DNA of 64,000 nt from the human T2T-CHM13v2.0 reference genome, Homo sapiens. The stretch is taken from NCBI RefSeq assembly GCF_009914755.1, contig NC_060941.1; one strand, given 5' to 3'. Made by a program: the position numbers and the translations under genes. Below the pieces are notes generated by a model. That model had not been told where the DNA came from. It saw only the letters and a list, made by a program, of their open reading frames with translations, and searched no databases. Shown here piece after piece: positions 39,590-43,950 of the stretch (its first letter is position 1; each line of letters starts with the position of its first letter).

Positions 39590-42500
39590 CTTAAGGTCCT
39601 AGCCATTTGCTTATACGGTGGTTGGTGATTTAGAAGGTACAAGGAATGGAGGCCATGGCTGATGTGTCAGTGTGTTTTAGACACGGGAATGTAGTGAACT
39701 CTATGCAAATTTTGCAGAATAAAGGCGGGTGGTGTCCTGTGTTTCCCAGTGGTCAGGAAGCAGAGCGTTCTCTAGAACTTAATTGACGCATTTCACCAGG
39801 CACCAGGTGGAAAGGTCCAGTACGGGGGATGAAACGTGACATCTTAGGATACTCCCTCCTGTACCATGATGGTGTGATGGTCACAGGCATGGAGAGGGCC
39901 CAGAGAGGGTATAGTAGCCTTTAGGACCATTGCTGTCTATCCTTATCCAGTGTACCTATAACTCAAGAACTGATGAATTTGGGAGACAATCTCTAGACCA
40001 CAGGGCCACCAAAAGTTCCATGGGCCCATGTTTAGGATTTTGAAGGACGCCCAGTGGCATACTGAGTAGTGTCCTTCCCAGTCCCAGCACTGATGCGCAG
40101 TTTCCTACTGCCAGGACATTGATGGCTATACTGGTGGAGGAGGAACCTGTGCATTTTTCTTATTTTTTTATTTTTTAGATGGAGTCTCACTCTGTTGCCA
40201 GGCTGGAGTGCAGTGGCGCGATCTTGGCTCACTGCAACCTCTGCCTCCCAGGTTCAAGCAATTCTCTTGCCTCAGCCTCCTGAGTAGCTGGGTCTACAGG
40301 TGCATGCCACCATGCCCAGCTAATTTTTGTATTTTTAGTAGGGACAGGGTTTCACCATGTTGGTCAGGCTGGTCTCGATCTCTTGACCTCGTGATCTGCC
40401 TGCCTTGGCCTCCCAAAGTGCTGGGATTACAGGTGTGAGCCACCGCACCCAGCCGATCCTGTGCATTTTTTTAGCTTTGAGCAGGCTTGGATCTCAGCCA
40501 ACTGGATGATGGCCTTGCAGAACTGTTTAGACTCACAGCAACAGAGCCGGCATGCCTGCAGAGTTCCCAGGCCACGGTGCTTTGGATGCGGGACTTCTCT
40601 GCCATCCCCTGCCATTGTGGTCTTGCTGGCAGGATATCTACCAAACAGTTTAGGCTGCTCAGCTCACAAATACGGGAAGCAAACTCTTTGAAGACTGCGA
40701 GGAGGCATGAGCTGAACCAAGTGTGCTCCAAGCACTCCTAGCTGTCAGGTAATGGGGAATGCCCCCCTTGAAGGCCACTTAGATCACTAGCAATGCTGTC
40801 TTCTTCACCATGAGGTCACTGACGTTAATCATCCAGTTTTCTTGCTGTGGAGTCACAGGAGAGTAAGTCATTTAGGCTGAAGACTTTTTTGTGTGTCCTT
40901 CTCCTGCCAGCTTGAGAAAGCTAGGGACTTCTTTTTTGTTTTTTGAGGCGGACTCTCGCTCTGTCGCCCAGGCTGGAGTGCAGTGGCGTGATCTCAGCTC
41001 ACTGCAAGCTCTGCCTCCCGGGTTCACGCCATTCTCCTGCCTCAGCCTCCCAAGTAGCTGGGACTACAGGCGCTCGCCACCACGCCCGGCTAATTTTTGT
41101 ACTTTTAATAGAGACAGGGTTTCACCATGTTAGCCAGGATGGTCTCAATCTCCTGACCTCGTGATCCGCCCGCCTCTGCCTCCCAAAGTGCTGGGATTAC
41201 AGGCGTGAGCCACTGCTCCCCGGCCAGGCTGGGGACTTCTTGATACAAGCTGGATGAGCTTGCCTTGAGGATATGAGGCTAGGCTGACTTTAGGGAAGTC
41301 AGTTTTTGGAAAGAGTTCTCAATCTCTGAAACAAAGCACACAGTGAAGCTGGTAGCAAAGAAATCCATTTTTGTTTGTTTTTTTTTTAGAGACATCGTCT
41401 CATTCTGTCACCCGGGCTGGAATACAGTGCTTGATCATAGCTCAGTATAACCCTGAAGTCCTGGGCTCAAGTGATCCTCCTCCTTCAGCCTCCCCAGTAG
41501 CTGGGACCACAGGTGTGCACCACCACGTCCAGCTAATTTTTTTATTTCTATAGAAACAGGGTCTCGCTGTGTTGCTCAGGCTGGTCTCAAACTCCTGGGC
41601 TCAAGTGATCCTCCCGCCTTGGCCTCCCAAAGTGCTGGGATTACAGGCATGCGCCATTGCACCCGGCGAATCCTAGATTCTAGAATTGCTTGGGGTAAGG
41701 GGTCTCCTAATCCAGGAACCCAGACCCTTTGCTCTGCTTGAGAACGCACTGTCTGAACTGAACATAACCCACGTCAGTCCGGCTCACAAAACTACACTTA
41801 TGGGGATTGGCCTGGAGGTGGCGCCCCTGTTGTTGGTCTAGAAATGCTGGCCAGAGGCTCAGGCCAGTCTGGCAAATGGATAAGAACATCACCCAATGGA
41901 AGAGGATGTCACAGCTCAGAAGGCTGGGCTGCACGCTTTATCAGCCCCTGGAAGAGAGCAGGGGCACTGCCCAAGCCTGAAAACATTGCACTTCCTTAAA
42001 CTGCTCAACACTTATCTTGACATCTGTGGGTTTTTTTGTTTGTTTTTTGTTTTTAGATATGTCTCACTCTGTCACCCAGGCTGGAATACAGTGGCACGAT
42101 CTCTGTTCACTGCAACCTCCACCTCCTGGGTTCAATCGATTCTCCTGTCTTGGCCTCCCAAGTAGCTGGGATTACAGGCATCCGCCACCATGCCCGGCTA
42201 ATTTTTGTATTTTTAGTAGAGACGGGGTTTCACCATGTTGGCCAGGCTGGGCTCGAACTCCTGACCTCAAATGATCCACCTGCCTCGGCCTCCCAAAGTG
42301 CTGGGATTACAGGCGTGAGCCACCATGCCCAGCCTTGACATCTGTTTTTAACTTCCATTCCCAGGTCCAGAGTGATCTGGGTTTTAAATATTACACCTTG
42401 ATGTCTTAATAAAACTTCCAAATCCAGCCTTCCCAAAAAATTATTCCATGACACAGCTTAAACACTCTTCTGATCAAAATGTACTGAGTGTTTTTTAGGG

Positions 42501-43950
42501 CAAAGATACATGTGACATCTTTGGTGGGTTGGTTTGTTTGAGGCAGGATCTCTGTTACCAAGGCTGGAGTGCAGTGGTGCAATCTAGGCTCACTGCAACC
42601 TCTGCCTCCTGGGCCCGAACCATCCTCCCACCTCAGCTTCCCAAGCAACTGGGACTACAGGTGCGTGCCTGGCTAATTTTTGTATTTTTTGTAGAGACAG
42701 GATTTTACCATATTGCCCAGGCTGGTCTCGACCTCCTGGTCTCAAGTGATCCACCCGCCTTGGCCTCCCAAAGAGTTGGGCTTACAGGCATGAGCCACCA
42801 CGCCTGGCCACATCTGATATCTTTAATAAAAAGACTCCAAGCAGGGCGGGCCTGAGATGGAAGAATCGCTTGAACCCGGGAGACAGAGGTTGCTGTGAGC
42901 CGAGATCGCGCCATTGCAATCTAGCCTGGGTGACAAGAGCAAAACTCCGTCTCAAAAAAAAAAAAAAAAAGACTGCAAGCAGGCTAGATTGAAGGGCTGG
43001 TCATACTTTCATCACCCCATGTCCCGCAGCCTGGCCAGTTTCACCCCATAGTTATGTTGAGCACCTCCTAGCGGAGGGGTCAGGTAAGTCAGGTAGCTGC
43101 AGGTGGTCTGAGAGATTCCATTCATTCATTTCTGGGCCACTGATCTGGCCAAGGGATTCAATCTATGTAAACGGGTTGAGGCATGTCTGCAAGACTGCCT
43201 TCTGTTCCTTGCCTCTGTGATCTGGGTCTGCTTTTCTGAACACGAAGGAGTCAGACAATCAGCAAAGCAAGGCGCAGTCCTGGGGAGTGACTGCTATAAG
43301 ACTACAGTAGCCCTGGCTGAGGTCAGAGCCTATAGAATTTGGTCCAGCCTGGCCATACCTGTTTGTAAGGGCAATCTACTGTATGTACGTGGATGTGTGT
43401 TTTCCCAGGACAAGGCAAAGAAGATCCATTCCTTCCAGCCTCAATCTGTATTAGTCAGGGTTCTCCAGGGAGACAGATTCAACAGGAGAGAAAGAGAGAA
43501 AGACGAAATGGAGTTTATTTATTAGGGAAATTGGCAAGAAGTCCCAAAACAGGTCGTCTGCAGACTGGAGACCCTGGGAGGCTGGTAGTATGGCTCAATT
43601 CAAGTCCCGAAGGCCTCAGAATCAGGGAATCTGATGGTGTAGCTCTCAGTTCAAGGCCAAAGGCCTGAGAAGCCAGGAAGGGTGGAGGAGAGGGGAGAAG
43701 TCCTGGAGTTTGAAGGCTGGGGAGCCTGGAGTTGTTGTCCAAGGACAGGAGAGGAAGAATGTGTCCCAGCTCCAGCAGATAGCTTGACATAGTTACCTCT
43801 CTGTTTTTGTTCTCTCCGGGACCCTAGGAGATTGGATAAATAATGCTTTACCAGGTTTCTAGATATTCTTTAATCCATTCAAGTTGACACCTAAAGTTAA
43901 CCACCACACAATCCATAGATCCCAGCCAAGGCAAAAGAAGCTTTACCCCA
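39590..43950 (-). mobile_element. decayed Ty3/Gypsy (Metaviridae) pol relic, PR-RT-RNaseH-IN, interrupted by six Alus and an MLT2 LTR
   Basis: manual minus-strand translation: [16 protein letters not shown] (41986-41939, ~MPFGL.NAPATFQRLM), then in frame PLGDVLIHLPDWPEPLA (~YLDDVLIYSPDWEEHL), HLQANPHKCSF (~GLTANPKKC), upstream ITLDL, downstream HYLTAR (40754) and NFWWP (40017-40003), in the expected order. Confidence 0.82.
43447..43908 (-). mobile_element. MLT2 (A/B-like) ERVL solo LTR
   Basis: tgtattagtcagggttctccag...caagttgacacctaaagttaaccaccaca; perfect 5-bp TSD caatc. Confidence 0.92.

What the first reader, a model, noticed from the sequence alone, without database searches (positions are those of the whole stretch)
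39590..43950. Hidden, near-complete Ty3/Gypsy pol fossil (PR-RT-RNaseH-IN) in a primate genome
Seen on the minus strand after removing six Alus and an MLT2 LTR, in order: IEAGRNGSSLPCPGKTHIHV (~43440, protease-like, weak); LRDMG..TSP..KD (~43030-42520); [22 protein letters not shown] (~42460-42365); [16 protein letters not shown] (41986); PLGDVLIHLPDWPEPLA (YxDD decayed to PLGD, 41899-41888); HLQANPHKCSF; D*ETP..KQ; RNase H-like ALLVI/KW..HYLTAR (~40800-40740); integrase zinc-finger-like NFWWP and KFISS* (~40017-39965). Established: these motifs and the RT-RH-IN order typify Metaviridae, which are extinct in mammals and survive as rare relics (MamGyp-type) and domesticated genes (PEG10, RTL1 and other RTL/SIRH genes, PNMA, GIN1, ARC). 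Inference: either an unusually complete ancient Gypsy copy or a dead, formerly domesticated gene. The RT block is convincing, while PR and IN are weaker. It may already be masked in Dfam, which I cannot check.
Basis: partly seen in the sequence, partly recalled or inferred. Interest (0 to 1): 0.85.

Follow-up and report, generated by a model that had tools for sequence, protein, structure and literature searches.

The report
Short decayed Gypsy-like RT remnant
The claimed near-complete Gypsy retrotransposon gene is at most a 70-codon, long-dead scrap of reverse transcriptase in old single-copy DNA, which is an ordinary kind of genomic fossil.

Summary
Only one part beats chance. This is a block of about 70 codons at 41779-41989 on the minus strand. 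It aligns to positions 146-218 of a Gypsy RT profile: the MPFGL..AP..FQ motif, then LKLNPxKCxF at the right spacing, across frameshifts.

The block is the best RT-like match in the whole window. No null window reached it with two statistics (0 of 22 and 0 of 6), and 1 of 7 did with a third. I estimate P at about 0.003-0.006 per 64 kb, which is weak for a genome-wide scan. Pfam and PDB searches see nothing.

The YxDD, protease, RNase H and integrase claims all score at chance. HERV-L copies run as controls give 37-86 bits per domain.

The LTR is an unrelated solo LTR with its own 5-bp target duplication. The old DNA has no paralogue in the human genome. Three look-alike ORFs from other genomes exist, and their frames are broken differently from the human one, so decay looks neutral.

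Verdict: probably (about 0.6) a scrap of a Gypsy-type RT. It is not a near-complete pol and not an ex-domesticated gene. Low interest.

The parts
41779..41989 (-). RT-like block, about 70 codons over at least two reading frames; aligns to positions 146-218 of a Gypsy RT profile (palm region)
   Evidence: Frameshift-aware profile alignment scores 24.5 bits and is the top of the window. The median score over 40 Gypsy references is 25.5, against 18.8 for the next best place.
41936..41989 (-). Block B1: [18 protein letters not shown], matching the MPFGL..AP..FQ..L motif
   Evidence: Ungapped profile score 17.6 bits; 0 of 300 shuffles reach it. hmmsearch on tiles places it at profile positions 145-164. 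The same block in P0122 aligns to P0002 575-612 by hhalign, P 0.0034.
41779..41829 (-). Block B3: QGRHLQANPHKCSFVSR, matching L(K)LNPxKCxF, in another frame than B1
   Evidence: Ungapped profile score 17.4 bits; 0 of 300 shuffles reach it. hmmsearch places it at profile positions 200-224. hhalign aligns P0001 61-84 to P0002 637-660, P 0.053.
41801..41908 (-). Claimed decayed YxDD stretch (HPLPLGDVLIHLP...)
   Evidence: Profile score 2.4 bits; 79 of 300 shuffles reach it. Not supported.
43447..43908 (-). Solo LTR of a multicopy family (MLT2-type by my recall), flanked by a perfect 5-bp target duplication GATTG at 43909-43913 and 43442-43446
   Evidence: Copies at 71-79% identity elsewhere in the genome; 1149 candidates, 40 scored. 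Flanks read.
40164..40450 (-). Alu insertion with target duplication AAAAATGCACAGG
40931..41225 (-). Alu insertion with target duplication of about 14 bp (AAGAAGTCCC.AGC)
41378..41664 (-). Alu insertion
42043..42323 (-). Alu insertion with target duplication ACAGATGTCAAG
42550..42808 (-). Alu insertion with a decayed target duplication of about 16 bp
42862..42966 (+). Partial Alu (right arm) with target duplication CCTGCTTG.AGTC
40457..40930 (-). Old unique DNA (segment B), the claimed RNase H
   Evidence: RNase H profile best 10.2 bits; 295 of 300 null segments reach it. DNA search of the genome finds only itself.
39545..40155 (-). Old unique DNA (segment A), the claimed integrase
   Evidence: INzf 136/300, INcore 114/300 and INc 43/300 null segments reach the observed score. 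DNA search of the genome finds only itself.
42971..43446 (-). Old unique DNA (segment G), the claimed protease and RT N-terminus
   Evidence: PR 249/300. RT positions 1-100: fraction 0.19-0.22. DNA search of the genome finds only itself.

Best explanation
The finding lies in old, single-copy, non-functional DNA that other mammal-like genomes also carry. Inside it, about 210 bp (41779-41989, minus strand) are most likely the last recognisable scrap of the palm region of a Ty3/Gypsy-type reverse transcriptase. The scrap holds two motif blocks at the right spacing, now in different reading frames and with stop codons. Later, six Alus and one unrelated solo LTR inserted into the region. Nothing else of a pol gene can be recognised, and nothing suggests any present function.

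Shown: the block, its rank in the window, its preference for Gypsy over ERV references, the insertions with their target duplications, and the lack of human paralogues.

Inferred: that the block descends from a real RT and is not a chance resemblance.
For: Score and rank of the block:
- A Gypsy RT profile built from 120 pol proteins gives its best frameshift-aware match of the whole window, both strands, here. It scores 24.5 bits at profile positions 146-218.
- 0 of 22 Markov windows reach that score (maximum 22.8). The reversed window reaches 21.0. 142 kb of other human loci, reversed, reach 22.8.
- The median score over 40 Gypsy references is 25.5 here, against 18.8 for the next best place in the window. 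0 of 6 null windows reach it (maximum 22.2).
- hmmsearch with filters off places the two blocks at colinear profile positions, 145-164 and 200-224. They lie about 95 nt apart where about 108 nt are expected.

Preference for Gypsy:
- 40 of the 120 Gypsy references were tried; their median is 25.5 bits (z 5.7).
- References from ten loci found with a Gypsy pol query (presumed ERVs; one may be RTL1) have a median of 14.0 (z -0.3).
- Nine HERV-L frame translations score 13.5-20.5.

Look-alike ORFs from other genomes:
- P0122 matches at E 3.5e-11; P0123 and P0126 also match.
- P0122 and P0123 keep the blocks they cover with similar profile scores: B1 15.1 in P0122, and B3 17.9 and 14.1. P0126 has lost B3 (2.3).
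- hhalign puts P0122 on MPFGL..APATFQ of the Gypsy pol alignment (P 0.0034) and the human frame on LKLQxxKCxF (P 0.053).
Against: - Pfam finds no RVT_1 in any of 18 frame translations at E<=10, nor in P0122, P0123 or P0126.
- PDB searches find no RT.
- tblastn with one Gypsy pol, P0002, finds nothing.
- With the best-of-40-references statistic, 1 of 7 null windows beats the observed 34.5, reaching 38.5.
- The catalytic YxDD stretch and both flanks of the block are at chance.
- A window-level P near 0.005 would give hundreds of chance hits over a whole human genome.
- The look-alike ORFs share descent with the human sequence, so they are not independent evidence.
- My profiles come from one Gypsy clade.
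Confidence: 0.6

Rival explanations
1. Chance resemblance. The region is plain old intergenic DNA, and the two motif-like blocks are the best accidental match that a reader scanning 64 kb in six frames would find.
For: - The significance holds only at window level. 1 of 7 null windows beats the best-of-40 score.
- Pfam and PDB searches find no hit.
- YxDD, the flanks and every other domain are at chance.
- Segment C can be aligned by eye equally well to two different parts of a Gypsy pol. That shows how easily such motifs appear (my reading).
Against: - 0 of 22 and 0 of 6 null windows reach the profile and median statistics.
- The two blocks are colinear with the right spacing.
- P0122 was not picked for RT likeness, yet it scores as high as the human copy on both blocks.
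Confidence: 0.33
2. Near-complete Gypsy pol fossil (PR-RT-RNaseH-IN), or a formerly domesticated gene.
For: The RT block. There are weak colinear hints: an RNase H profile match in segment C at profile position 37, reached by 40 of 300 null segments.
Against: - PR, RNase H and IN profiles and 40-reference panels give nothing above chance at the claimed places.
- The best IN-core hit of the window (43353, 31.0) lies upstream of the RT. 3 of 7 null windows reach that score.
- HERV-L copies give RT 63-86, RNase H 37-45 and IN core 66-69 bits with the same method.
- The longest open frame in the block is 76 aa.
- Frames shift between the human sequence and P0122 and P0123.
Confidence: 0.04
3. Internal part of the ERV-L-type provirus that owns the adjacent LTR.
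For: The LTR lies directly upstream on the same strand.
Against: - The LTR has a perfect 5-bp target duplication of its own, so it is a solo insertion.
- Segments A, B, D and G have no DNA paralogue in the genome, while the LTR has many at 71-79% identity.
- HERV-L RT frames score 13.5-20.5 on the block. Only 1 of 9 is above its own null maximum.
Confidence: 0.03

Closest known systems
Mammalian Gypsy relics in Repbase/Dfam: MamGyp-int with MamGypLTR1-3, LTR85, LTR88, LTR104_Mam, and X1_LR to X4_LR (Kojima 2018, PMC5753468; passages read)
   Same: Ancient, dead, fragmentary Gypsy-type sequence in a eutherian genome. The RT motifs are of Gypsy type (MPFGL..AP..FQ, NPxKCxF) and not ERV type.
   Different: Membership could not be tested because no Dfam or Repbase library is on hand. 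No human paralogue was found by DNA or protein search, whereas these families have many copies. No associated LTR was seen.
Gypsy-type RNase H fossil at G000:C15:69118551-69118841 (L006)
   Same: A Gypsy-derived fragment in the same genome, broken by stops.
   Different: That fossil is unmistakable: Pfam RT_RNaseH scores 89.3 bits despite 5 stops. The window's block gets no Pfam hit at all. tblastx finds no similarity between the two loci apart from Alus.
HERV-L / MLT2 (names by my recall)
   Same: An LTR of this kind sits inside the region.
   Different: It is a solo LTR with its own target duplication. HERV-L pol copies (L052-L054) carry LPQGY..SPALC and YIDD motifs and do not match the block.
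Domesticated Gypsy genes (RTL1, PEG10 and others; list recalled, and named in part in PMC5753468)
   Same: Gypsy ancestry.
   Different: Those genes keep long open frames. One example is a 1377-aa open frame at G000:C14:95117408-95118388, which I take to be RTL1 from its position (recall). Here the frames are broken, and the RT region of that locus scores at null level on the block (L030, 14.5).

Membership tests
Ty3/Gypsy (Metaviridae) pol | RT palm motifs (MPFGL..AP..FQ and L.LNP.KC.F) colinear and correctly spaced | tested here: inconclusive
   Present, and the top of the window at 24.5 bits. 0 of 22 null windows reach it. The median statistic is 25.5, with 0 of 6 null windows. Against this, 1 of 7 null windows beats the best-of-40 score, and Pfam gives no hit.
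Ty3/Gypsy (Metaviridae) pol | Catalytic YxDD motif between those blocks | tested here: not met
   The LGDV stretch scores 2.4 bits; 79 of 300 shuffles reach it.
Ty3/Gypsy (Metaviridae) pol | RNase H domain downstream of RT | tested here: not met
   Segment B scores 10.2 bits (295/300 null segments reach it) and segment C 12.2 bits (40/300). No peak in the region with the profile or the panel. Pfam finds none.
Ty3/Gypsy (Metaviridae) pol | Integrase (HHCC finger and DDE core) downstream of RNase H | tested here: not met
   Segments A and B: 43 to 136 of 300 null segments reach the observed scores. The only IN-core hit lies upstream of the RT and is at null level.
Ty3/Gypsy (Metaviridae) pol | Aspartic protease upstream of RT | tested here: not met
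   Segment G 249/300 and segment E 34/300.
Ty3/Gypsy (Metaviridae) element | Own flanking LTRs with a target duplication | tested here: not met
   The only LTR is an unrelated solo insertion with its own GATTG duplication. I did not search further out for other LTRs.
MamGyp-int or X_LR repeat families | Significant alignment to the family consensus or HMM | not testable with these tools
   No Dfam or Repbase library is available. No human paralogue was found.
Domesticated Gypsy gene (living or recently dead) | Long open frame, or a frame shared with orthologues; dN/dS below 1 | tested here: not met
   The longest open frame in the block is 76 aa. Frames shift relative to P0122 and P0123. dN/dS could not be tested because no orthologous DNA is on hand.
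ERV-L provirus | Internal sequence continuous with its LTR and similar to other ERV-L copies | tested here: not met
   Target duplication around the LTR. No DNA paralogues. HERV-L RT frames score at null level or close to it.

The most novel reading that the evidence does not exclude
The block is the only surviving trace of an old Gypsy-like lineage that belongs to none of the catalogued mammalian Gypsy families. It is single-copy in human, it is shared with at least three other genomes (the source species are not given), and it would therefore have escaped consensus-based masking.
Probability: 0.1. Interest if true: 0.35.

Novelty: new member of a known kind. Interest (0 to 1): 0.12.

Why it matters
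It matters little. Gypsy relics in mammalian genomes are already catalogued (PMC5753468). This one, if real, is a 210-bp dead scrap with no sign of function or domestication.

The useful result is negative. The 'near-complete PR-RT-RNaseH-IN' reading came from picking motifs by eye, and it does not survive calibrated, frameshift-aware tests. The case also shows that two good motif blocks can reach only window-level significance.

Tried and rejected
- Pfam on single frames read through with X gave nothing. The positive control L006 worked.
- PDB sequence searches gave no RT.
- tblastx against the chr15 Gypsy fossil found only Alus.
- tblastn with P0002 had a best E of 1.9 and nothing colinear.
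- hmmsearch on whole 21-kaa frames gave only negative scores because of the target length, so I switched to tiles.
- The search for homologous proteins with P0001, longer proteins only: 19 candidates, none at E<=10.
- I looked for integrase upstream of the LTR, to test a Copia-like or Gmr1-like domain order. There was no colinear hit in 43300-50000.
- The IN-core hit at 43353 is the window's top (31.0), but 3 of 7 null windows reach it.
- RNase H by eye (TPQQENW, KKTALLVI*, HYL) looked plausible but scores below the null mean.
- Loci picked as possible Gypsy fossils (L052-L054) turned out to be HERV-L-type. They were kept as positive controls.
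Full report
**What is there.** I read the region 39400-44100 on the minus strand and listed its open frames (109 frames of at least 30 aa on both strands, most of them in Alus).

A BLAST of one Alu against 38500-45000 confirms six Alus inside the finding:
- 40164-40450, 40931-41225, 41378-41664, 42043-42323 and 42550-42808, with the Alu sense strand on the minus strand.
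- A partial copy at 42862-42966 on the plus strand.

Most of them have recognisable target duplications. The non-Alu pieces were therefore contiguous before the insertions.

The stretch 43447-43908 is a multicopy LTR. The genome search found 1149 candidates and scored 40 places; the matches outside this locus are 71-79% identical over the main part of the LTR. 'MLT2' is my recalled name for it. It is flanked by a perfect 5-bp duplication GATTG, at 43909-13 and 43442-46. It is therefore a solo LTR that landed in older DNA, and not the LTR of the proposed element.

**Standard searches see no pol.**
- Each of the six larger non-Alu segments (F and H were left out) was translated in the three minus frames with stops read as X. 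18 of 18 translations gave no RVT_1, RT_RNaseH, Integrase_H2C2, rve or protease family in Pfam at E<=10. One gave a chance KRBA1 hit at E 0.65.
- PDB sequence searches of two frames of the RT segment found no RT.
- As a positive control I searched the genome for Pfam RT_RNaseH. The best place, chr15:69118551-69118841, is a true Gypsy-type RNase H fossil. Read through five stops, it still scores 89.3 bits in Pfam. Real fossils are therefore detectable in this way.

**Calibrated, frameshift-aware tests.** The chr15 fossil led to P0002, a 1312-aa Gypsy pol, and then to 120 Gypsy pols, P0002-P0121. From their alignment I built profiles for PR, RT, RNase H, the IN finger, the IN core and the IN C-terminus.

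With HMMER filters off, on 70-aa tiles of all six frames, the RT profile hits two neighbouring frames of segment D at colinear positions:
- Profile 145-164 on [20 protein letters not shown].
- Profile 200-224 on DQQQGRHLQANPHKCSFVSRTDVGYV.

The two hits are about 95 nt apart where about 108 nt are expected.

I then wrote my own Smith-Waterman aligner of profile against DNA, with frameshift moves. Its results for the RT profile:
- The best score of the whole window, on both strands, is 24.5 bits at 41986-41779, profile positions 146-218.
- The next best real peaks are 22.1 (inside RPL17P41) and 19.1.
- The reversed window reaches 21.0.
- 142 kb of other human loci, reversed, reach 22.8.
- 0 of 22 third-order Markov windows reach 24.5; the maximum is 22.8.
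- A Gumbel fit of those 22 maxima, which is my own calculation, gives P of about 0.006 per window.

A second statistic is the median over 40 single Gypsy references scored with BLOSUM62:
- It gives 25.5 here, against 18.8 for the next best place in the window.
- 0 of 6 null windows reach it; the maximum is 22.2. My Gumbel estimate is about 0.003.

A third statistic, the best single reference of the 40, is weaker. It gives 34.5 here, against null maxima of 38.5, 33.5, 32.0, 31.5, 31.0, 30.5 and 30.5. So 1 of 7 null windows exceeds it.

The method is sensitive. ERV pol copies in the other fetched loci score 112-137 bits with the same RT profile.

**Gypsy or ERV?** On segment D:
- 40 of the 120 Gypsy references were tried. 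Their median is 25.5 bits, against a null mean near 14.5 and sd near 1.7 (median z 5.7).
- Ten of the twelve loci fetched with P0002 gave usable RT references; two gave no tblastn match at 1e-5. I take them for ERVs; one of them, L030, is probably RTL1, judging by position (recall). Their median is 14.0 (z -0.3).
- Nine frame translations of three HERV-L-type copies score 13.5-20.5. Only 1 of 9 is above its own null maximum.

So if the block is real, it is of Gypsy type.

**The rest of the claimed pol is not supported.**
- The flanks of the RT block were tested against the profile ranges they should match. The fraction of null pieces reaching the observed score was 0.33-0.39 for segment E, 0.74-0.78 for the start of D, 0.79-0.81 for the end of D and 0.19-0.22 for segment G.
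- The YxDD stretch scores 2.4 bits; 79 of 300 shuffles reach that.
Between 34 and 295 of 300 null segments reached the observed score. For RNase H in segment B it was 295 of 300.
- The 40-reference panels for RNase H, the IN finger and the IN core show no peak at the claimed places.
- The window's top IN-core hit (31.0, ending at 43353) lies upstream of the RT. 3 of 7 null windows reach it, and no colinear integrase lies further upstream.
- For comparison, three HERV-L-type loci give RT 63-86, RNase H 37-45 and IN core 66-69 bits, in the right order, with the same code. That is how a near-complete pol fossil looks.

**Relatives elsewhere.**
- DNA searches of segments D, A, G and B against the whole genome find only themselves. 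C, E, F and H were not tried. The LTR search shows that copies at 71-79% identity are detectable.
- The 76-aa open frame finds only itself at protein level. The other three matches have E 0.14-4.3.
- A full phmmer scan of 1.84 billion representative proteins with frame a of segment D gave 5 proteins at E<=0.001. Three of them are clearly the same sequence from other genomes: P0122 (E 3.5e-11), P0123 and P0126. The other two, P0124 and P0125, are repetitive proteins that I judge to be unrelated.
- P0122 matches the human genome only at this locus (E 1.1e-12). The other five matches have E>=0.17. It therefore behaves as an orthologue of a single-copy sequence.
- Relative to the human sequence, P0122 carries B1 and B3 in one frame. 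P0123 carries the LGD stretch and B3 in one frame. The frames therefore break differently in each genome, as expected for neutral decay.
- Profile scores of the blocks stay similar. B1 scores 17.6 in human and 15.1 in P0122. B3 scores 17.4 in human, 17.9 in P0122, 14.1 in P0123 and 2.3 in P0126.
- None of the three gets a Pfam or PDB RT hit.
- hhalign against 25 Gypsy pols (A1) puts P0122 on FST..MPFGL..APATFQ (P 0.0034, probability 9.6%). It puts the human frame on LKLQ..KCxF (P 0.053, probability 1%).

**Weighing it.** Two motif blocks, colinear, correctly spaced and Gypsy-specific, form the best RT-like place in the window. Two of three null calibrations never reach them. Against this:
- The significance holds at window level only. 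A human genome holds roughly 48,000 such windows.
- Curated libraries see nothing.
- The catalytic motif and everything around the block are at chance.
- The look-alike ORFs are not independent evidence.

My odds are about 0.6 that the block is a true scrap of a Gypsy-type RT and about 0.33 that it is chance. The near-complete, ex-domesticated and ERV-L readings share the small remainder.

**Known context.** From the passages of Kojima 2018 that I read (PMC5753468):
- The human genome holds traces of Gypsy elements: MamGyp-int with MamGypLTR1a-d, 2, 2b and 2c; LTR85, LTR88, LTR104_Mam and MamGypLTR3; and X1_LR to X4_LR.

I saw the other papers only as a search listing, and I consulted no supplements. 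I could not check whether this locus is already masked as one of those families.

**Limits.**
- My profiles come from one Gypsy clade (42-64% identical to P0002), although they detect ERV and HERV-L pol well.
- The nulls are Markov simulations and reversed real DNA.
- The P values rest on Gumbel fits to 22 and 6 maxima.
- No orthologous DNA was available, so synteny and dN/dS could not be tested.

Noticed in passing
L006 / L026 (G000:C15:69118551-69118841, minus) and L051 (G000:C15:69176254-69176451, minus): Two isolated Gypsy-type RNase H fossils lie 58 kb apart on chr15. Pfam RT_RNaseH scores 94.4 and 41.7 bits in the genome search, and my RH profile scores 88 and 54 bits. No RT or IN is detectable beside either one.
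   Followed up: partly
window 43353-43440, minus strand: The window's best integrase-core-like match (W.EW...A....N..H..T) lies here, upstream of the RT block and right beside the solo LTR. 3 of 7 null windows reach its score, so it is probably chance.
   Followed up: yes
window 26168 and 26605, plus strand (RPL17P41): The ribosomal-protein pseudogene gives the second-best RT-profile scores of the window (22.1 and 19.1). This shows that coding-like sequence raises chance scores.
   Followed up: no
P0126 (protein from another genome): The look-alike ORF carries an inserted stretch (…GIEP..P…HWTTREF…) that I recall as typical of ruminant SINEs. The insertion splits the sequence at a different place than the human Alus do.
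   Followed up: no
L030 (G000:C14:95117408-95118388, minus): A 1377-aa open frame without stops is 29% identical to Gypsy pol residues 493-823. From its position I take it to be the domesticated gene RTL1 (recall). It had been counted among the 'ERV' references.
   Followed up: no
window 40905-40925, minus strand (start of segment B): [12 protein letters not shown] resembles the SFLGLAGYY motif at the end of Gypsy RT. It gave the second-best RT panel score of the window (28.0). It is about 50 codons too far from the RT block, and null windows reach 30 or more.
   Followed up: partly
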